Shown: in pieces, positions 1 to 6,177 of the stretch
How the letters are laid out: the number at the start of each line of letters is the position of its first letter
How positions within the stretch are numbered: the stretch's first letter is position 1
Source: a virus
Strand: one strand, 5' to 3'
IMG/VR virus record: IMGVR_UViG_3300005099_000139
Coordinates: 1 to 6,177 of that record
Length of the DNA stretch: 6,177 nt
Translations under genes and position numbers: made by a program
Notes under the pieces: generated by a model
What the model was told of the DNA's origin: nothing
The model's database searches: none
The model's input: the letters and a program-made list of their open reading frames with translations, nothing else

Positions 1-91
1 AGAAGCCAATTTCGCACCATAAGGACGATGCAAATGATAATGCTCACCTACAAGATCAAGTACAAAAGCATTCAAGAATCTAGGTGATTGG
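1..91. repeat. Terminal redundancy, left copy (identical to 6087-6177), marking circular permutation
   Basis: Base-by-base comparison of both window ends gave 91/91 identity. The repeat runs to the window edges, so its length is set by the window rather than by biology. Confidence 0.95.
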
Positions 92-708
92 GTAATAAAC
101 CAAATATCATGCCCTGTATGACGATGTACCTGTAATTTTTGGACAATTTCATCTTTGTTTGACTGAGTACCCGATCTATAGCGTTCATGCTGCTGTGCTT
201 CATCATAATAAACAATAGAGCCGTCAGGCGTAGTACGCCAATCGTCAGGCGTTTTTAAAACGTGATCAACTTTAAGACCGTTAATGTCTGCATATTGCTG
301 GCGTACATCTAAAATATGCTCAAGTTTTAAATCAAGCTGATTATTAATTAAATTTAAGATGAGGTTATAAATAACCGTATCGTAAAAATATGATTCATAT
401 CGCTGTTCTAATGAAAAACCGCTAAAAGACTGAAACGAATCAAACAAGGTTGAAACAGTAATATTAGTCTGATCATATTCAGCTAAAGCGTTTCTCATAT
501 CTTCATAAACTTTCTGATCTCCATCAAAATCAGAAACGTTAATGAAAATCTGCTTATCACAATTATTTTCTATTTTCTCAAAGTTACGGTTAAAGATATG
601 TGGATTGAGTTTTAAATGCTTGGCATTGCTTTTTTCGCGTTCAACAATTGTATGAACTGCAAATAATGTTTTTCCGCTTCCTGGTGTGCCTGTTGTGAGT
701 ACGATCAT
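1..708 (-). CDS. Zot/pI-like assembly ATPase, N-terminal 236 codons (continues at 6086..5367; 475 aa in total)
   Basis: ATG at 708-706 is preceded by AAGGA (GAAGGATAATTATTATG). Hand translation gives MIVLTTGTPGSGKTLFAVHTIVE, with Walker A GTPGSGKT. It also gives SIVYYDEAQ (Walker B) and VHRHTGHDIWFITQSPRF, the pattern typical of Zot/pI P-loop NTPases. The frame is open to base 1. Confidence 0.9.
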   Translation of the reverse strand, partial: MIVLTTGTPGSGKTLFAVHTIVEREKSNAKHLKLNPHIFNRNFEKIENNCDKQIFINVSDFDGDQKVYEDMRNALAEYDQTNITVSTLFDSFQSFSGFSLEQRYESYFYDTVIYNLILNLINNQLDLKLEHILDVRQQYADINGLKVDHVLKTPDDWRTTPDGSIVYYDEAQQHERYRSGTQSNKDEIVQKLQVHRHTGHDIWFITQSPRFLNAFVLDLVGEHYHLHRPYGAKLAS

Positions 709-721
709 AATAATTATCCTT

Positions 722-772
722 CATAACTTTGGCGTGATGTGCGTTCACGGAACGCCACACGCCAAAGTTATG
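722..772. other. Compound hairpin at the pVI-like/pI junction: 15-bp outer stem and 6-bp inner stem
   Basis: CATAACTTTGGCGTG (722-736) is the exact reverse complement of CACGCCAAAGTTATG (758-772). Inside it, GCGTTC (741-746) pairs with GAACGC (750-755) around a 3-nt loop. The element overlaps the pVI-like stop codon (768-770) and ends 14 nt before the Zot RBS region. Confidence 0.8.
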
Positions 773-1055
773 CTGTTACTTTTTTCAGTCCGAGATTCAT
801 AGCTTCCATCGTTGCGCGAGCGATTAAAGCACCGATTAAAATTGAGATAGCGACATCAGCACCCGACAAACCTAGAAACGCCATAGCACTTGATGCACCA
901 GTAGACATTCCAGAAAGTGCTTTATTTATATAAACATTGATAATGCTTAAAATAATTTGACTTGAAACAATCGCAAGGCCAGCACCTACCAAAATTCGCT
1001 TTAATGCTGAACCTAGAACAAATCCAATAATCCAATATAGGAATCTTAAAATCAT
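768..1055 (-). CDS. pVI-like minor coat / membrane protein (95 aa)
   Basis: The ATG at 1055 overlaps the pIII-like stop (ATGA at 1055-1052). The protein is very hydrophobic with several predicted TM segments. Its position between the pIII-like and pI-like genes matches gene VI of Ff-type phages. The call rests on position and composition only. Confidence 0.6.
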   Translation of the reverse strand: MILRFLYWIIGFVLGSALKRILVGAGLAIVSSQIILSIINVYINKALSGMSTGASSAMAFLGLSGADVAISILIGALIARATMEAMNLGLKKVTA

Positions 1056-2515
1056 TCGCTTGACCCCCTAGACAGACCCATAACGATATAAGCACCAATG
1101 AGATAAGCGATAGCGATAACAAAAGGCCTAATCATGCTCATGAATTGACAAAGTGGCTGATATGAAAATTCGAGATTTTGAGTTGAACCCATAAAAGAAA
1201 CGGTAAACTGTTCACCAGCAGGACAACCATTAATAAAAGTGATTCTTTGCGTTTCATCTACCTGTATGTTTTGTTCTTCAGGTGTAATTTCGCCACTGTT
1301 ATCATTGCCCTGATCCGAACCCTGCTGATCTAAAAAAGCCCTGATTTCATCAAAGAAACCTAAAGTTTCATCAAAGAATTCCCTAGCACGATTAAAGAAG
1401 CTTTTTGTTTCTGCATAATGTTCTGCATCTTGTTCTTTGATTTCTTGCAAGCGTTCTAAATGCTGATCTAACTTTTGTTTTAATACGTCATTATTTGCAT
1501 TGTAATCAGTACGCCAATCCTTCCAGTCAAGATACCAATTACAGACTTGGACAGACCAATCACAGAATTCTGGAAATTCTACTGGTGGGTATTGTTCCGA
1601 CGGTGTGCCTTGTTCAGGATCAAAATTGTCTAACCATAGACGCAATTCATCATAAAACTGTTTATCTTGTTGTTTTACCTGTTCAAGCGTTAATGAATTG
1701 TTTTGGATAGCTTCCTTAATAGCTTCCTGCTTTGAATTGATTTCTGTTAATTGTTCCTTAGAATCCAAAGATAAACGCTTTAATTCTTCGCGATCTAAAT
1801 TTGCTTTTTCTTCATTGGCTGCATAGTCATTTGACCACTGTTGCCATTCTTTGTGCCATTGGCACATTACAGAAGCCCATTCACAAAATGCAGGCCATTC
1901 TGTAGGAGGAGGAGGAGGATCACCAGCATTTGGATCTTGAGTACAACGACCATTTACCATGATTTGACCAGCAGGACACTGATCATCACGCGGCATACAA
2001 TTACCATTTAAATCTAAGGCTTGACCAGCAGGACATTGTTTCTTTTGACATTGACCATTTACAAGAGTTTCACCAACAGGACATTTTTTAGGCTGACATT
2101 TTCCATTAGCATCTTTCTCATAGCCAGAAGGACAAGTTGTACAAGATTCATCATAATTATTATTTTTAACTTTTTGCGTAGCTAGAGAAAAATTTCCCAA
2201 ATAAGAATCTTTACCAGTATATTTAAATTGGCAAGTTGTACCAGTAATTTCAGTAAGAACAAACTCTGTATTTGAAGCTGCTTTATGTTGTTGCATACTA
2301 AAATTACAAGCTTGTGCAACTGTTTTAAACTGACCACCATAATAAGGACTAGTATAATATTCAACACCTAAACATTGATCTTCTGCCCAAGAACCGCCCG
2401 CACCACCACCACCAAAAGAACCACCAGCAGCAAAACTTTGACTTGATAAAAAGACTAATATCAAGACCGCAACATAATTAATAAAGCGAGTACAAATATT
2501 ATTACTATTAGCCAT
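1052..2515 (-). CDS. pIII-like adsorption/minor coat protein (487 aa from ATG 2515)
   Basis: There is a signal peptide MANSNNICTRFINYVAVLILVFLSSQSFA followed by a Gly-rich tract GGSFGGGGAGGS. Four CPxG..NGxC repeats, a PPPPP run and two Trp/Cys-rich repeats follow. The C terminus is a membrane anchor, MIRPFVIAIAYLIGAYIVMGLSRGSSE. The gene sits immediately after the major coat gene and its terminator. The ORF-track extension to 2635 begins at TTG and overlaps the coat gene. Confidence 0.75.
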   Translation of the reverse strand: MANSNNICTRFINYVAVLILVFLSSQSFAAGGSFGGGGAGGSWAEDQCLGVEYYTSPYYGGQFKTVAQACNFSMQQHKAASNTEFVLTEITGTTCQFKYTGKDSYLGNFSLATQKVKNNNYDESCTTCPSGYEKDANGKCQPKKCPVGETLVNGQCQKKQCPAGQALDLNGNCMPRDDQCPAGQIMVNGRCTQDPNAGDPPPPPTEWPAFCEWASVMCQWHKEWQQWSNDYAANEEKANLDREELKRLSLDSKEQLTEINSKQEAIKEAIQNNSLTLEQVKQQDKQFYDELRLWLDNFDPEQGTPSEQYPPVEFPEFCDWSVQVCNWYLDWKDWRTDYNANNDVLKQKLDQHLERLQEIKEQDAEHYAETKSFFNRAREFFDETLGFFDEIRAFLDQQGSDQGNDNSGEITPEEQNIQVDETQRITFINGCPAGEQFTVSFMGSTQNLEFSYQPLCQFMSMIRPFVIAIAYLIGAYIVMGLSRGSSE

Positions 2516-2543
2516 GACATTATATTTCCCCAAGTTTAAATTT

Positions 2544-2573
2544 AAAAAAGGACGATCCGAAGAACGCCCTTTC
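2544..2573 (-). terminator. Rho-independent terminator downstream of the major coat gene
   Basis: The minus-strand RNA is AAGGGCGUUC-UUCG-GAUCGUCCUU followed by a U run. The stem has one G.U pair and one U.U mismatch and closes on a UUCG tetraloop. It lies 22 nt after the coat stop, the same placement as the terminator after gene VIII in Ff phages. Confidence 0.75.
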
Positions 2574-2594
2574 TTGAAACGCTCACAAGCCGAA

Positions 2595-2807
2595 TTACAT
2601 CGCTCGGCGAATAAGTTTCCAGCCCTTGATACCAACCAAAATCAAGAGAATTGCAGCACCAATAGCAGCGATTGGAGCAGCCAAACCCGAAATTTCAGAA
2701 ACGATTTCAGTTGTTTCAATTGCAGCATTTGAAGCACTGGCAGCCATTAACGCACCAGCACCAATACCAGCAGGCAGGAAACGGTTTTTATTGGTTTTTA
2801 GATTCAT
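2595..2807 (-). CDS. pVIII-like major coat protein precursor (70 aa; predicted mature form ~42 aa)
   Basis: A strong RBS precedes the start (AAAAAGGAGATTCACATG). The leader MNLKTNKNRFLPAGIGAGALMAASASNA ends in an SxA site. The mature part has an acidic N terminus (AIETTEIVSEIS), a hydrophobic core (GLAAPIAAIGAAILLILVGI) and a basic C terminus (KGWKLIRRAM), the classic inovirus coat layout. Confidence 0.82.
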   Translation of the reverse strand: MNLKTNKNRFLPAGIGAGALMAASASNAAIETTEIVSEISGLAAPIAAIGAAILLILVGIKGWKLIRRAM

Positions 2808-2822
2808 GTGAATCTCCTTTTT

Positions 2823-3002
2823 TTACTTGAGAATTGAAGCAAGCTTTTTAAATCCCCATGCAGCAACAAGTACAAGACCTATCGCTACACAAAGTTGCCC
2901 CGCTTGTTCAACAGAAATATCGGGCAATCCGAGAAAGCCCACCTGTACCCAGTGGAGACACTGATTTGTAATTTCATCAATTTGGGTACATTGGTAAGCC
3001 AT
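2823..3002 (-). CDS. Small membrane protein (59 aa), candidate minor coat in the pVII/pIX position; absent from the ORF track
   Basis: Hand translation gives MAYQCTQIDEITNQCLHWVQVGFLGLPDISVEQAGQLCVAIGLVLVAAWGFKKLASILK. The RBS is AAGGA (CTAAAAGGATTTTAAAAAATG) and the stop TAA is at 2825-2823. The gene fills the gap between the ssDNA-binding candidate and the coat gene. Its C-terminal half has a hydrophobic core and a basic tail. Confidence 0.55.
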   Translation of the reverse strand: MAYQCTQIDEITNQCLHWVQVGFLGLPDISVEQAGQLCVAIGLVLVAAWGFKKLASILK

Positions 3003-3021: not shown

Positions 3022-3288
3022 CTAAGCAACAAGCGGAAGACCGTCAGAGCCAGTAATCCGCATAATAGACTGTTTCTTTGTAACAAGTAAACGTACAGGT
3101 ATTGTAAACTCATTACCAATATATTTTTTATATTCAGGAATCATAAACTCATGTTCTTTCGAAACCATGATTTGGACAGAACAGGGAACATCTTTACCAA
3201 GCCCCATATCATACTTAGTTGATTCAAATACTAAATTATTAAAATCACCCGTCTTTACATCAATTAAAACAGCTTTGAAGATATCCAT
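3022..3288 (-). CDS. Candidate ssDNA-binding protein (pV-like, 88 aa)
   Basis: The size (Ff gVp is 87 aa) and the position, downstream of rep and upstream of the coat genes, fit pV. The composition looks soluble. I could not verify any sequence motif by eye, and the RBS is weak. Confidence 0.5.
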   Translation of the reverse strand: MDIFKAVLIDVKTGDFNNLVFESTKYDMGLGKDVPCSVQIMVSKEHEFMIPEYKKYIGNEFTIPVRLLVTKKQSIMRITGSDGLPLVA

Positions 3289-3377: not shown

Positions 3378-3575
3378 ATGGTATTAAAAATGATCAAAAT
3401 GTTACGAATCAAAGAAGTACAGAGCGAAAATCTTCGAAAAAAGTGCATAGAAATTAATAAATTATTAATATCTATGAATAAAGAACCCCTCAAAGATAGT
3501 GAAATCGCTCACAAAATTTTAGACATAGGTATAAAAAGCATCTTTGTTAATAAATACGGAGAACTAGAAATGTAA
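3378..3575 (+). CDS. Small plus-strand protein (65 aa), candidate transcriptional regulator, possibly ribbon-helix-helix-like
   Basis: The ATG follows GGAG at 8-nt spacing (CAGGAGTAAACAAAATG). The composition is charged and helical. The pattern KMLRIKEV, then a helix, then ..KDSEIAHKILDIG, resembles the strand-helix-(S/T)E-helix layout of Arc/CopG-type repressors. It is the only gene opposed to all others, is convergent with rep, and overlaps the rep 3' end by 12 nt. Confidence 0.55.
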   Translation: MVLKMIKMLRIKEVQSENLRKKCIEINKLLISMNKEPLKDSEIAHKILDIGIKSIFVNKYGELEM

Positions 3576-4643
3576 TTCTTCACAAACGTCTATGAAATAA
3601 TCAAAAATAGCAAAATCATCATCACATCCAGTAGGGCGAGAGTAAGATAAATAATTCTGCATATCAAAAGCAGGAATATTTTTAGAATCAAAAGAATAAA
3701 GATCAGATGCAAAAGAAAATTGATCAAGATCATAGTGATAAAACATAGATACTGAAACAGGCATCTTATTGGGGTACATTTGCTTATATTTATCTAATTC
3801 AGTTATATCAACAACAGATCCAAAGCCTTTCCACTTCAAAACACGAGAATTATGATCAAAATGCCAAGGGGATGAAAAACCCTTTAAGGTGACACGATCC
3901 ACCCAATAACAACCAAACTTTTTAACACCGTTATTAATATCAAATAATTCACGAACCCAGGAAGGCGCACAAAGCCATATTTTAGAAATACGCATAGGAA
4001 CAGTTAGACCACCAGAACCATGCAACCGCGCATTTTTAGGAATTTTACCGTAAGACTGGGGATCAATACCCTTAGATGTATATTTGCAAAGATAACCAAC
4101 AGGTTTACGCGCCCAAACGCTGTTAGTCATGCCATGTTTCCACCATCCTTGTTTGTCAGCCTTGGGCATAGTGTGACCTTTAGGAATCCACCACATGACA
4201 TGATAATGGGGAACACCCTTTTTAGTTAATTCCATAACCCAAATATAATGAACAGAAAGACCCTTTCTTTTAGCCCATTGTTTAACACACTTAACATACT
4301 CAGTAACATGCTTAGGAGACCAATCAACATCAGGACGATAAGTCAAAGTAACCATTGCAGGCTTCATTCTTTGATTGAAAGCCTTAATTTTTTCTTCAAC
4401 AACTTCAGCAGTAACACGAACAGATTTTTGAAGACGCTTTAAACGCAAATAATCTTGAGAAGGCAACTCAATTTGATAAGGCGTGTCACTTGTTAATATA
4501 GAGACAAGCCCAGTGTCACGTAATTCAGATTTTATATTTTTAGCAGAAACGCGCGAAGAAGCAGCAGAAAGATTTTTTAAAAACGAAACATCAACAGGAT
4601 TACTAAGATCCAAAGCAGAAACAACTTGATTCATCGTAGACAC
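3564..4643 (-). CDS. HUH rolling-circle replication initiator (Rep), 359 aa from GTG 4643 or 356 aa from ATG 4634
   Basis: RCR motif 1 is MVTLTYR (4335-4355). The HUH motif is PHYHVMWW, with H-Y-H codons at 4200-4208. The catalytic Tyr motif is VGYLCKYTSK, of the Y-x3-Y type, at 4080-4094. This is the largest cytoplasmic protein and sits at the head of the operon. Confidence 0.85.
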   Translation of the reverse strand: MSTMNQVVSALDLSNPVDVSFLKNLSAASSRVSAKNIKSELRDTGLVSILTSDTPYQIELPSQDYLRLKRLQKSVRVTAEVVEEKIKAFNQRMKPAMVTLTYRPDVDWSPKHVTEYVKCVKQWAKRKGLSVHYIWVMELTKKGVPHYHVMWWIPKGHTMPKADKQGWWKHGMTNSVWARKPVGYLCKYTSKGIDPQSYGKIPKNARLHGSGGLTVPMRISKIWLCAPSWVRELFDINNGVKKFGCYWVDRVTLKGFSSPWHFDHNSRVLKWKGFGSVVDITELDKYKQMYPNKMPVSVSMFYHYDLDQFSFASDLYSFDSKNIPAFDMQNYLSYSRPTGCDDDFAIFDYFIDVCEELHF

Positions 4644-4669
4644 CGATTTAAAATACGTTTAGACACCGA
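4637..4669. repeat. Two direct copies of TAGACACCGA, 23 bp apart, spanning the rep start codon and 5' UTR
   Basis: Exact 10-mers lie at 4637-4646 and 4660-4669. On the minus strand each reads TCGGTGTCTA. The first copy overlaps the GTG/ATG start region of rep. Confidence 0.7.
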
Positions 4670-4702
4670 AGCCTAAAGAACGCCAATTCTTTAGGCTTTT
4701 TT
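4669..4702 (+). terminator. Perfect 12-bp hairpin followed by a T run, with plus-strand intrinsic-terminator geometry; on the minus strand it is a 5'-UTR stem-loop of rep
   Basis: AAGCCTAAAGAA (4669-4680), loop CGCCAA, TTCTTTAGGCTT (4687-4698), then TTTT on the plus strand. On the minus strand the stem is followed by CGGTGTC, which is not a U tract. Confidence 0.6.
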
Positions 4703-5125: not shown

Positions 5126-5212
5126 TCAGGAAGGAAAAAACAACTTAAAATCTATGTAAATCAGTAAAGCTATGACAACGATACCCGCACCAAAACAAGC
5201 AATTAAACGCAT
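5126..5212 (-). CDS. Tiny single-pass membrane ORF (28 aa)
   Basis: Hand translation gives MRLIACFGAGIVVIALLIYIDFKLFFPS. The ATG overlaps the upstream stop (TAATG), AAGGAA lies 8 nt upstream, and the stop TGA is at 5128-5126. Confidence 0.4.
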   Translation of the reverse strand: MRLIACFGAGIVVIALLIYIDFKLFFPS

Positions 5213-5367
5213 TAATTTTCCTTATAGTATTGTTCTAAGCATGAATACAAAATCCATCCAATCAAAATACCGAAAAACAAACCAACAATAAAGCCCATTC
5301 CACCAACAAAAAATAAACCTCTATTTAATTCTAGAATTACTTCCTTAGAAACAATAAATTCTTGCAT
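5212..5367 (-). CDS. Small single-pass membrane ORF (51 aa), translationally coupled to Zot/pI
   Basis: Hand translation gives MQEFIVSKEVILELNRGLFFVGGMGFIVGLFFGILIGWILYSCLEQYYKEN. The ATG shares one base with the Zot stop (TAATG at 5369-5365), and GGGGG lies 7 nt upstream. Confidence 0.5.
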   Translation of the reverse strand: MQEFIVSKEVILELNRGLFFVGGMGFIVGLFFGILIGWILYSCLEQYYKEN

Positions 5368-6177
5368 TATATAGCCCCCTGAACTGGAACAATTTGATTA
5401 TTTTGCTGAACCTGAGCTGAATTAAATTGTTGCTGCTGCTGTTGTTTAGCGAAATAGTTGAAAGGACGATCACCATTTTCAATTAATTTTCTACAGTCTT
5501 CACTGGAGACATTAAGCTTAGTACCTTGTTGAGTGTAAGCATAATATTTACCGTTGAACTTAGTACATCCTGAGAAAACAGGCATAGCCGTCACATCATA
5601 TTGAATAGAATCCTGTATTTCTTGCTGATCAAAAGGCGTATCAGGATTATATGAAACACGCTGAACATTAGATTCGGAATTATTCTGCTTTGATTTTGAA
5701 TCAAACCATTGGACACATTCAGGCTTTTCAACATTTATGCCCTTCCGACATTCCTGATCTAGTTGATCTGGAGCTATAGAAGCTGTTTCTTGCTTATCCC
5801 CTTGCTGATTTTTTTCTTGATTTGGTTCTTCCTTAGCTGATTCAGGATTAATAAATTTTTGCGTCTTATCACTAAAAATCATATTCCAAACAAAGATACC
5901 CAAGCAGATTGCAACAGCACCAATAATAAAGAACTTTTTAGGTATCTTGAATTTTACGCTATGAGAAGTTGCAGACTTATAATGAGTAAATAAAGACTTA
6001 GGATATTTAAATAAAAACTCATTTTCAGCAAGTTCACGGCTTGCTGTAGATTGCGGTTGTTTACGGCAGCTTCGCCAGTAGTAAACAGAAGCCAATTTCG
6101 CACCATAAGGACGATGCAAATGATAATGCTCACCTACAAGATCAAGTACAAAAGCATTCAAGAATCTAGGTGATTGG
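5367..6177 (-). CDS. Zot/pI-like assembly protein, C-terminal part: transmembrane segment plus a ~168-aa predicted periplasmic domain (6087-6177 duplicates 1-91)
   Basis: This is the same frame as 1..708 across the circular junction. A TM helix FFIIGAVAICLGIFVWNMIF lies at about 5874-5933, as in pI/Zot topology, and the stop TAA is at 5369-5367. The 'M' at 6161 in the ORF track is a TTG Leu codon inside the gene. Confidence 0.88.
   Translation of the reverse strand, partial: QSPRFLNAFVLDLVGEHYHLHRPYGAKLASVYYWRSCRKQPQSTASRELAENEFLFKYPKSLFTHYKSATSHSVKFKIPKKFFIIGAVAICLGIFVWNMIFSDKTQKFINPESAKEEPNQEKNQQGDKQETASIAPDQLDQECRKGINVEKPECVQWFDSKSKQNNSESNVQRVSYNPDTPFDQQEIQDSIQYDVTAMPVFSGCTKFNGKYYAYTQQGTKLNVSSEDCRKLIENGDRPFNYFAKQQQQQQFNSAQVQQNNQIVPVQGAI
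6087..6177. repeat. Terminal redundancy, right copy (identical to 1-91)
   Basis: Same comparison as the left copy. Confidence 0.95.

What the first reader, a model, noticed from the sequence alone, without database searches (positions are those of the whole stretch)
1052..2515. pIII-like adsorption protein with an unusual doubly repetitive architecture
After the signal peptide the mature protein starts directly with a Gly-rich tract. It then carries four tandem CPxG(x4-6)NGxC modules at 1943-2134: CPSGYEKDANGKC, CPVGETLVNGQC, CPAGQALDLNGNC and CPAGQIMVNGRC. A fifth CPAGE lies near the C terminus. A PPPPP hinge follows the four modules. Two copies of a Trp/Cys-rich module lie within 1466-1903, EWPAFCEWASVMCQWHKEWQQWSNDYAAN and EFPEFCDWSVQVCNWYLDWKDWRTDYNAN. 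I count 14 of 31 identical positions over the longer 31-residue alignment of these two modules. Each copy is preceded by prolines and followed by a long charged helical stretch. This does not resemble the Ff N1-N2-CT layout. It suggests a duplicated disulfide-stapled receptor-binding unit and a repeat stalk that could vary in copy number.
Basis: partly seen in the sequence, partly recalled or inferred. Interest (0 to 1): 0.65.

Follow-up and report, generated by a model that had tools for sequence, protein, structure and literature searches.

The report
Acinetobacter filamentous-phage tip protein, modular repeats

Summary
The gene is on the minus strand (1052-2515, 487 aa). The window is a complete circular Acinetobacter inovirus genome, 6086 nt plus a 91-nt assembly overlap.

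The gene lies between the major coat gene and a pVI-like gene. Its last 57 residues match the TspB C-terminal domain (NCBIfam E=2e-21).

What I found:
- The "fifth CPAGE" is not a fifth module. It is the invariant first Cys-Pro of a Cys-flanked beta-hairpin that precedes the membrane helix, laid out as in Ff pIII.
- The Trp/Cys duplication spans about 100 residues (BLASTP E=1e-15). Its conserved hydrophobic positions keep a heptad register. It is the most conserved part of the protein (91-96%). Other phage tip proteins carry it as a single copy. It is therefore probably coiled-coil tip or entry machinery, not a receptor binder.
- Residues 44-127 fall into 63 sequence types among 103 relatives and vary independently of the rest of the protein. 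This is the likely host-range cassette.
- The four CPxG hairpins are stable: about 90% of relatives have four and 8 of 120 have five. There is no DNA-level tandem repeat. Xanthomonas and Stenotrophomonas phage tip proteins share them.

Verdict: a new variant of a known kind, of moderate interest.

The parts
1052..2515 (-). Complete CDS of the pIII/CoaA-type minor coat (adsorption) protein, 487 aa plus stop
   Evidence: ORF and translation. 259 homologues; the best is 99% identical and named 'virulence factor TspB C-terminal domain-related protein [Acinetobacter lwoffii]'. Conserved gene order in relatives.
2429..2515 (-). Signal-peptide-like N terminus (aa1-29, MANSNNICTRFINYVAVLILVFLSSQSFA)
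   Evidence: Read from the sequence: a basic n-region, a hydrophobic core and an S-F-A site. AlphaFold2 predicts helix 6-29. No dedicated signal-peptide predictor was available.
2387..2428 (-). Conserved Gly-rich tract at the predicted mature N terminus (aa30-43, AGGSFGGGGAGGSW)
   Evidence: G36, G38, G41 and W43 are invariant in 68 sequences. The tract is also present in relatives only 38-43% identical, P0119 and P0120. It is 90-95% identical at the DNA level in relatives whose next domain is unrelated.
2135..2386 (-). Hypervariable N-terminal alpha/beta domain with four Cys (aa44-127); proposed receptor-binding, host-range cassette
   Evidence: Identity to the window is 6-30% per 10-residue block, against 85-96% elsewhere. 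DNA identity is 44-51% against 85-95% in the flanks. There are 63 sequence types among 103 proteins, uncorrelated with the backbone. AlphaFold2 pLDDT is about 90-95. No PDB structural neighbour was found.
1943..2134 (-). Four tandem Cys-closed beta-hairpin modules, CPxG(x4-6)NGxC (aa128-191); proposed rigid stalk
   Evidence: Coordinates. One beta-hairpin is predicted per module, pLDDT 81-90. Identity across the family is 85-89%. The region matches the minor coat proteins of Xanthomonas Xf409/Xf109 and Stenotrophomonas PSH1/SMA6 (tblastn E from 4e-7 to 5e-4; sequence).
1901..1942 (-). Pro-rich hinge (aa192-205, includes PPPPP)
   Evidence: pLDDT is below 50. Length and sequence vary among relatives.
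1604..1900 (-). Helical unit 1 (aa206-304): Trp/Cys module 1 (nt 1814-1900), charged helix, and FYDELRLWL end
   Evidence: Internal duplication with unit 2, BLASTP E=1e-15. Helices 209-273 and 277-296. Heptad periodicity stays in phase over the unit, p=0.0005. The middle of the helix varies in length among relatives.
1301..1603 (-). Helical unit 2 (aa305-405): Pro-rich lead-in, Trp/Cys module 2 (nt 1493-1579), charged helix, and FFDEIRAFL end
   Evidence: (helix 320-397). It is the most conserved block (96% for aa321-330). Single-unit relatives keep this copy next to the anchor.
1226..1300 (-). Acidic low-complexity linker (aa406-430)
   Evidence: pLDDT is 30-37. The sequence varies among relatives.
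1052..1225 (-). TspB_C domain (aa431-487 plus stop): invariant Cys431-Pro432, predicted beta-hairpin, Cys456, then a C-terminal membrane helix.
   Evidence: NCBIfam NF041109 E=1.9e-21, aa431-481. Pfam PF05616 E=1.8e-5. C, P and C are the only invariant columns in a diverse alignment. Strands 437-441 and 444-448 and helix 453-483.
768..1055 (-). pVI-like minor coat gene (95 aa, DUF2523); overlaps the stop of the tip-protein gene by 4 nt and is its presumed partner in the virion tip
   Evidence: Pfam PF10734 E=4e-8. phrog_1242 E=3e-18. The same position is kept in all related loci.
2595..2807 (-). Major coat protein gene (70 aa), immediately upstream
   Evidence: Pfam Phage_Coat_B E=1e-16.
2540..2580 (-). 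Terminator-like hairpin followed by a U-run, between the coat gene and the tip-protein gene
   Evidence: RNA fold of -16.8 kcal/mol, z=-2.7. The simple consensus scan did not call it.

Best explanation
The gene encodes the pIII/CoaA-type tip protein of an Acinetobacter inovirus. I propose five functional parts.

1. A signal peptide exports the protein. The C-terminal helix holds it in the inner membrane until assembly.
2. The TspB_C domain is a Cys431...Cys456-flanked beta-hairpin followed by a membrane helix. Together with the downstream DUF2523 (pVI-like) protein it builds the fivefold virion tip, laid out like the H1 hairpin and M helix of Ff pIII.
3. Two tandem copies of a ~100-residue unit form the helical cap of the tip. 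Each unit has a small Cys-x6-Cys element, a Trp-lined amphipathic helix, a charged heptad helix and an F-[YF]-D-E-x-R-x-[WF]-L end. These units play the part of the Ff C1/C2 helices: virion stability and unlocking at entry. The unit is single in related phages and was duplicated in this lineage.
4. Four disulfide-closed beta-hairpins and a proline hinge act as a stiff spacer, in place of the glycine linkers of Ff.
5. The hypervariable four-Cys N-terminal domain (aa44-127) binds the primary receptor and sets host range. It is exchanged as a cassette between phages by recombination in the conserved flanks (the Gly tract and the first CPxG module).

Shown here: gene identity by synteny and domain match, the duplication, the conservation pattern, the cassette behaviour, and the predicted secondary structure.

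Inferred: disulfide pairing (nine consecutive pairs, as expected for DsbA oxidation in the periplasm), pentameric assembly with the pVI-like protein, the roles of the stalk and helical units, and the identity of the receptor (possibly the variable type IV pilin).
For: Identity as the tip protein:
- Gene order is coat, this gene, DUF2523, Zot/pI. The order is conserved in M02 and in metagenomic relatives.
- NF041109 TspB_C gives E=1.9e-21 and PF05616 scores above its cut-off.
- In A. baumannii phage Af1, the TspB-domain CoaA was assigned as the likely source of a ~49-kDa band seen in the protein profile of the phage preparation (PMC11209303).

C-terminal layout:
- Cys-Pro...Cys is invariant, with a predicted hairpin and a membrane helix.
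- This parallels f1 pIII Cys354-Cys371 and its M helix (PMC10175506).

Helical units:
- The duplication has E=1e-15.
- Conserved hydrophobic positions show 3.5-residue periodicity in phase across each unit (p<=0.0005).
- W213-M217-W220-W224-W227-Y231 form a 4-3-4-3-4 stripe.
- This is the most conserved region.
- A single copy lies next to the anchor in P0129-P0138 and in M02.

N-terminal domain:
- 63 types occur among 103 proteins, while the rest of the protein forms one cluster.
- 558 of 567 pairs with at least 90% identical backbones have N-domains below 35% identical (r=0.04).
- Identical N-domains sit on backbones only 69% identical.
- Nucleotide identity drops from 85-95% to 44-51% exactly over aa44-125.
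- The fold is predicted with confidence (pLDDT about 90-95).

Stalk:
- One hairpin is predicted per module.
- The module number is almost fixed.
- The array is shared with Xanthomonadaceae phage tip proteins.
Against: - No experiment on this protein exists, and its place in the virion is inferred.
- The monomer model is poor for the helical half (pLDDT about 50). Coordinates cannot be inspected, so disulfide pairing and helix packing are untested.
- In a continuous helix, Cys i and i+7 are too far apart to bond. The Cys-x6-Cys element is therefore unresolved: AlphaFold2 puts both Cys of module 1 inside the helix but only one Cys of module 2.
- No sequence or fold similarity to Ff pIII was detected, so the comparison with the Ff C domain is an analogy of layout only.
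- In Neisseria MDA phage, the TspB-family ORF6 is not needed for binding to pili (PMC12819557). A tip protein of this family is therefore not necessarily the primary adhesin.
- High conservation of the CPxG array would also fit binding to a conserved co-receptor.
Confidence: 0.62

Rival explanations
1. One reading: the two Trp/Cys modules are a duplicated, disulfide-stapled receptor-binding unit, and the CPxG array is a stalk of variable length.
For: The modules are real, paired and Cys-bearing. They have a strongly aromatic surface that could bind a ligand. CPxG module number does differ in 8 of 120 relatives.
Against: The modules are the least variable part of a protein whose N-terminal domain changes completely between near-identical phages. 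They keep heptad register with long helices. They lie next to the membrane anchor and occur in tip proteins with unrelated N-terminal halves. There is no DNA repeat that would drive copy-number change.
Confidence: 0.08
2. Two-receptor model as in Ff and CTXphi. The variable N-terminal domain binds a variable primary receptor. The conserved CPxG hairpin array is not an inert stalk but binds a conserved co-receptor such as periplasmic TolA.
For: The CPxG array is 85-89% conserved next to a hypervariable domain. It recurs in the tip proteins of phages of other genera. Ff and CTXphi tip proteins use a pilus and then TolA (PMC10175506; PMC12819557).
Against: There is no similarity to any TolA-binding N1 domain in sequence or fold. 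Small single-hairpin modules joined by K/Q-rich linkers look more like spacers. Module number can change, 4 to 5, without loss of the family.
Confidence: 0.22
3. The Trp/Cys modules are membrane-interface elements. They stay buried in the tip until receptor binding, then partition into the inner-membrane interface and help the tip open and insert, like the Trp-rich membrane-proximal regions of enveloped-virus fusion proteins.
For: After the signal peptide, the anchor helix and one Tyr-rich stretch of the N-terminal domain (aa53-63), they are the most favourable Wimley-White interfacial segments. They also have among the largest helical hydrophobic moments. The f1 model proposes that the C domain opens and that pVI and pIII insert into the membrane (PMC10175506).
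Against: This is purely compositional. The same aromatic stripe is equally explained by protein-protein packing in a coiled coil. Module 1 lies about 220 residues from the anchor.
Confidence: 0.18
4. The protein is mainly a TspB-like host-interaction or virulence factor (for example immunoglobulin binding), as its database name suggests.
For: The NCBI name and the Pfam/NCBIfam matches. The same idea was raised for Af1 CoaA (PMC11209303).
Against: Only the C-terminal 51-72 residues match, at positions 441-512 of the 517-position Pfam model. That segment is the membrane and virion anchor, not a ligand-binding region. The rest of the protein is unrelated.
Confidence: 0.03

Closest known systems
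CoaA ('virulence factor TspB C-terminal domain-related protein') of Acinetobacter baumannii filamentous phages Af1 and M02 (OQ693633)
   Same: Same genus of host, same gene order (coat, CoaA, DUF2523, Zot), and the same TspB_C anchor: 44% identity over aa377-487. M02 has one FPVFCEWAPTVC element just before the anchor. In Af1, CoaA was assigned as the likely source of a ~49-kDa band in the protein profile of the phage preparation (PMC11209303).
   Different: M02 CoaA has no CPxG array, no Gly tract, an unrelated N-terminal half, and a single, degenerate Trp/Cys element instead of two full units.
Ff (M13/f1/fd) pIII
   Same: Gene position, signal peptide, modular N-terminal receptor part, and a helical C-terminal part ending in a Cys-flanked beta-hairpin and a membrane helix that caps the virion with pVI (PMC10175506).
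   Different: No detectable sequence similarity (hhalign E=0.34 and 0.15). No N1/N2 folds. The Gly tract sits at the mature N terminus instead of between domains. It has a Cys-hairpin stalk, and a C-terminal half about twice as long that contains a duplicated unit.
Neisseria meningitidis MDA phage ORF6 / TspB (Pfam PF05616)
   Same: C-terminal domain family and the role of tip or entry protein of a filamentous phage (PMC12819557).
   Different: Only the last ~70 residues match. ORF6 is dispensable for binding to pili, so function cannot simply be transferred.
Minor coat proteins of Xanthomonas phages Xf109/Xf409 and Stenotrophomonas phages PSH1/SMA6
   Same: An array of four CPxG-type Cys hairpins followed by an acidic/Pro hinge, and a C-terminal Cys-Pro...Cys plus membrane helix.
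   Different: No Trp/Cys helical units, and a different N-terminal and middle region.

Membership tests
pIII/CoaA-type inovirus tip (adsorption) protein, as a functional class | Gene lies between the major coat gene and the pVI-like gene, followed by the pI/Zot gene | tested here: met
   Phage_Coat_B at 2595-2807, this gene, DUF2523 at 768-1055, and Zot-like across the window ends. The same order holds in L001 and L003-L009.
pIII/CoaA-type inovirus tip (adsorption) protein, as a functional class | N-terminal signal peptide and C-terminal membrane anchor | tested here: met
   Read from the sequence. AlphaFold2 predicts helices 6-29 and 453-483. These are the most hydrophobic segments. No dedicated predictor was run.
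pIII/CoaA-type inovirus tip (adsorption) protein, as a functional class | Cys-flanked beta-hairpin directly before the anchor helix | tested here: met
   C431 and C456 are invariant. Strands 437-441 and 444-448 are predicted, at low pLDDT. Compare f1 Cys354/Cys371.
pIII/CoaA-type inovirus tip (adsorption) protein, as a functional class | Five copies at the virion tip; required for infection | not testable with these tools
   Needs virion proteomics, cryo-EM or genetics.
Ff pIII homologue (N1-N2-CT) | Sequence or fold similarity to the N1, N2 or C domains | tested here: not met
   No Pfam pIII domain. hhalign against M13 g3p gives E=0.34 and 0.15. No PDB sequence hit. No g3p structure among the Foldseek hits.
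TspB C-terminal domain family (NCBIfam NF041109; C-terminal end of Pfam PF05616) | Score above the curated cut-off | tested here: met
   NF041109 scores 75.8 bits against a cut-off of 24, over aa431-481. PF05616 scores 23.9 bits against a cut-off of 20.
Full-length Neisseria TspB (PF05616) | Match over most of the 517-position model | tested here: not met
   Only model positions 441-512 are matched.
Named Cys-rich repeat domains (EB module, CC domain, DUF4215) | Pfam score above the gathering threshold | tested here: not met
   CC E=0.27 and DUF4215 E=0.52, both below cut-off. There is no EB hit, although some relatives are named 'EB domain-containing protein'.
Coiled coil (for the two helical units) | Heptad periodicity of conserved hydrophobic positions, in phase over a long helix | tested here: met
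   Power at period 3.5 exceeds that at 3.6 for whole units, with shuffle p<=0.0005. Long helices are predicted. The oligomeric state was not tested.

The most novel reading that the evidence does not exclude
The Trp/Cys module may be a natural 'tryptophan zipper'. Its invariant W-x3-M/V-x2-W-x3-W-x2-W-x3-Y stripe places bulky aromatics at successive core (a/d) positions. The module could therefore set or lock the fivefold symmetry of the phage tip and act as the latch released at entry. Its duplication would give a two-tier latch. Together with an N-terminal receptor cassette present in at least 63 interchangeable types, this would be a new, self-contained plug-and-play design for filamentous-phage tips.
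Probability: 0.15. Interest if true: 0.7.

Novelty: new variant of a known kind. Interest (0 to 1): 0.45.

Why it matters
Filamentous phages of Acinetobacter were first characterised in 2024, and their entry machinery is unknown. This protein family shows a clean division of labour. A conserved anchor, helical core and stalk carry a small, confidently folded four-Cys domain. That domain exists in dozens of unrelated sequence types and moves between phage backbones.

If the domain is the receptor binder, three things follow:
- It gives a ready-made catalogue of Acinetobacter-targeting modules for engineered phages.
- It gives a direct handle on what these phages recognise.
- It offers a case study of receptor-driven diversification in the smallest DNA phages.

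The duplicated Trp-lined helical unit is absent from the well-studied Ff model. It could show how non-Ff tips are held together and opened.

Tried and rejected
- Near-identity DNA search of the whole window against GenBank phages found no match.
- PDB sequence searches gave only chance-level hits, with the full protein and with a C-terminal profile.
- Foldseek against PDB found nothing with E<0.06, using the full model or a clean, high-confidence model of aa43-196 (mean pLDDT 87). Against BFVD only three unnamed viral proteins matched, with E about 1e-6 over the full length.
- hhalign against M13 g3p was not significant. Its best, non-significant alignment does superpose the second hairpin Cys and the anchor helix.
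- A homologue search with the N-terminal domain alone returned nothing. No candidate shared three 5-residue words with the query, although proteins with the identical domain are in the database (P0001). This is therefore uninformative.
- Tandem Repeats Finder found no array over the CPxG modules. Slippage-driven copy-number change was rejected for that reason.
- A twin Cys-x6-Cys 'helix staple' between modules 1 and 2 (CHCH-like) was considered and is disfavoured. Single-module proteins keep both Cys. Module 1 of P0122, P0123 and P0126 has Cys-x9-Cys while module 2 keeps Cys-x6-Cys. In helical register the Cys lie away from the aromatic stripe.
- P0127 (950 aa, 16 'copies' of the module) is a low-complexity repeat artefact, not a relative.
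- Rfam found no match in the window. The consensus scan did not call the coat/g3p terminator, but folding supports it.
Full report
**What the window is**

All long ORFs lie on the minus strand. The first 91 nt equal the last 91 nt. The window is therefore a circular 6086-nt genome with an assembly overlap.

In transcription order, the Pfam and PHROG searches identify:
- a rolling-circle Rep at 3564-4643 (REP_ORF2-G2P);
- two small proteins at 3022-3288 and 2823-3002;
- the major coat protein at 2595-2807 (Phage_Coat_B, E=1e-16);
- the gene in question at 1052-2515;
- a DUF2523/pVI-like protein at 768-1055;
- a 475-aa Zot/pI protein that runs 708..1 and continues 6086..5367;
- a 51-aa protein at 5212-5367.

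This is a canonical inovirus layout without a secretin gene. The closest protein, 99% identical, is from Acinetobacter lwoffii. The same phage sits as a prophage in an A. lwoffii assembly (L004).

**Checking the observation**

Translation of 2515..1052 gives 487 residues. The identity count of 14/31 is reproduced once the preceding P-x is included.

The duplication is much larger than the 30-residue module. Residues ~200-304 and ~305-405 align at 31% identity over 104 residues with E=1e-15. The match includes the ends FYDELRLWL and FFDEIRAFL.

The DNA 11-mer occurs three times exactly, against 0.06 expected with up to one mismatch. It only encodes C-P-A-G. Tandem Repeats Finder detects no repeat over the module array.

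**Identity of the protein**

Synteny places it where pIII/CoaA lies in inoviruses. The last 51 residues match NCBIfam NF041109 (TspB C-terminal domain) at E=1.9e-21. Pfam PF05616 is matched above its cut-off, but only at model positions 441-512 of 517.

An alignment of this C terminus with diverse relatives leaves just three invariant columns: Cys431, Pro432 and Cys456. AlphaFold2 places two short strands between the two Cys and a long helix after them.

This is the layout described for f1 pIII, a beta-hairpin with Cys354 and Cys371 at its ends, followed by the M helix (PMC10175506).

Sequence similarity to M13 g3p is not detectable (hhalign E=0.34 and 0.15). The comparison with Ff is one of layout, not demonstrated homology.

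For the A. baumannii phage Af1, the authors assigned CoaA, which carries the same TspB domain, as the likely source of a ~49-kDa band in the protein profile of the phage preparation (PMC11209303).

**The family and its conservation pattern**

The homologue search returned 259 proteins, nearly all from 4-8-kb contigs with the same gene order.

In a 68-sequence alignment (A1), identity to the window protein varies sharply by region:

| Region | Identity to the window protein |
|---|---|
| CPxG array | 85-89% |
| Trp/Cys module 1 | 90-92% |
| Trp/Cys module 2 | 91-96% |
| Residues 51-120 | 6-30% |

At the DNA level, three relatives are 85-95% identical on both sides but only 44-51% identical over aa44-125.

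Among the 103 proteins for which the domain could be delimited:
- The N-terminal domain falls into 63 clusters at 50% identity, while the rest of the protein forms one cluster.
- Of 567 pairs with backbones at least 90% identical, 558 have N-domains below 35% identical.
- N-domain identity and backbone identity are uncorrelated (r=0.04).
- Identical N-domains occur on backbones only 69% identical.

Four Cys are kept in 96 of the 103 N-domains. The domain is predicted with pLDDT about 90-95 as a small alpha/beta fold. It has no significant neighbour in the PDB (best E=0.14).

This behaviour is what one expects of a receptor-binding cassette under diversifying selection, exchanged by recombination in conserved flanks. 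That it binds the receptor is an inference.

**The CPxG array**

Each module is predicted as one disulfide-closable beta-hairpin (pLDDT 81-90).

About 90% of 120 relatives have four modules. Five proteins have an extra module at the N-terminal side, and three have one at the C-terminal side.

A similar four-module array followed by an acidic/Pro hinge occurs in the minor coat proteins of Xanthomonas Xf409/Xf109 and Stenotrophomonas PSH1/SMA6.

Pfam's Cys-rich repeat families are not matched significantly (CC E=0.27, DUF4215 E=0.52).

I read the array as a stiff spacer. Binding of a conserved co-receptor is the main alternative.

**The Trp/Cys units**

A profile of aa196-420 searched against 1.84 billion representative proteins finds only 23 clusters. 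Apart from one repeat artefact (P0127) and a few short fragments that I did not read, they fall into two groups:
- Two-unit proteins: this family, plus P0122, P0123 and P0126, in which module 1 has Cys-x9-Cys.
- One-unit proteins: P0129-P0138, including one from A. seifertii.

In the one-unit proteins, a single [LF]-P-x-F-C-x-W-x4-C-x-W element and a charged helix ending in F-W-x-K-V-x-D-[WF]-F-D-W sit directly before the TspB_C anchor. Their N-terminal halves are unrelated to this family.

Phage M02 CoaA also has one FPVFCEWAPTVC before its anchor.

The unit is therefore part of the conserved C-terminal machinery and was duplicated in this lineage.

Within the units, conserved hydrophobic positions show 3.5-residue periodicity in phase over the whole unit (p<=0.0005). 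Power at period 3.5 exceeds that at 3.6. This is the signature of a coiled coil.

The invariant W213, M217, W220, W224, W227 and Y231 form a 4-3-4-3-4 stripe. The modules rank among the most interfacially hydrophobic and most amphipathic segments outside the signal peptide and the anchor.

These data argue against a receptor-binding role. They favour helix-helix packing in the tip, with a membrane-interface role at entry as an alternative.

The Cys pairs are always kept together, even in one-unit proteins, and their spacing can change. This favours a bond within each module. That in turn requires the Cys-x6-Cys stretch not to be a regular helix. AlphaFold2 is undecided here, with pLDDT about 50-58.

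**Mechanism proposed**

1. The signal peptide drives export, and the protein stays anchored in the inner membrane by its C-terminal helix.
2. Nine consecutive Cys pairs are oxidised in the periplasm. This rests on established knowledge of DsbA, not on a test here.
3. The TspB_C hairpin and helix assemble with the pVI-like protein at the end of the filament.
4. The two coiled-coil units form the cap.
5. The hairpin array and Pro hinge project the N-terminal domain.
6. The N-terminal domain binds the primary receptor and determines host range.

Steps 1 and 3 to 5 are inferred by analogy with f1. Step 6 is inferred from the variation pattern.

One caution comes from Neisseria MDA phage. Its TspB-family ORF6 is required for transduction but not for binding to pili (PMC12819557).

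**Comparison and novelty**

The protein belongs to an already named but uncharacterised family, annotated as "TspB C-terminal domain-related" or "EB domain-containing". It is clearly a pIII-type tip protein.

What is new relative to described systems is the architecture:
- a conserved Gly tract at the predicted mature N terminus;
- a swappable four-Cys head;
- a Cys-hairpin stalk in place of Gly linkers;
- a duplicated Trp-lined coiled-coil unit.

I found no paper describing these features.

I rate it a new variant of a known kind, of moderate interest.

Noticed in passing
window 1-91 and 6087-6177: The two ends are an exact 91-nt direct repeat. The window is a complete circular genome of 6086 nt with an assembly overlap. 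The 475-aa Zot/pI gene runs across the ends (708..1, then 6086..5367) and is therefore missing from the ORF list as one piece.
   Followed up: yes
window 2540-2580, minus strand: A GC-rich hairpin followed by a U-run lies between the major coat gene and the tip-protein gene (-16.8 kcal/mol, z=-2.7). It resembles the terminator after gene VIII in Ff phages (the Ff comparison is from memory, not checked here) and would keep tip-protein expression low. The simple consensus scan did not call it.
   Followed up: partly
window 2387-2428 (aa30-43): The motif FGGGGA(S/G)G(S/D)W at the predicted mature N terminus is nearly invariant, even in relatives only 38-43% identical, yet it directly precedes the hypervariable domain. 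It may be a recombination anchor, a functional flexible tail, or both. It remains unexplained.
   Followed up: partly
window 722-736 and 758-772: A perfect 15-bp inverted repeat with a 21-nt loop lies at the end of the pVI-like gene, in the gap before the Zot/pI start. It could be a regulatory or packaging hairpin.
   Followed up: no
window 3378-3575, plus strand: The only convincing gene on the opposite strand is a 65-aa ORF in the AT-rich gap between Rep and the next gene. It matches phrog_5642 (E=7e-18, function unknown). It may be a regulator.
   Followed up: partly
window 4669-4698: A perfect 12-bp inverted repeat with a 6-nt loop lies just upstream of the Rep start. It is a candidate operator or origin element.
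   Followed up: no
L003, L005-L008 compared with window 3564-4643: Relatives with near-identical structural modules carry different replication proteins: Rep_trans (PF02486) or Rep_1 (PF01446), instead of REP_ORF2-G2P here. The replication module is swapped between these phages as well.
   Followed up: partly
L009:1466-4043 (GCA_003940445.1 contig): A more distant inovirus carries two tandem tip-protein paralogues (430 and 427 aa) between the coat and DUF2523 genes. They have different N-terminal halves and nearly identical C-terminal parts. Each has two Trp/Cys modules, and module 1 has Cys-x9-Cys.
   Followed up: partly
L004:1-5900 (A. lwoffii GCA_037027825.1): The same phage (tip protein 99% identical) is integrated in a chromosomal contig next to host genes, including an eptA-like gene and a two-component system. 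No integrase is encoded in the window, so integration presumably uses host recombinases.
   Followed up: no
P0127 (representative-library hit): A 950-aa 'protein' with 16 matches to the Trp/Cys module is a translated tandem DNA repeat (MLSFCHWENDCCRW...). It is a false positive of the profile search.
   Followed up: yes
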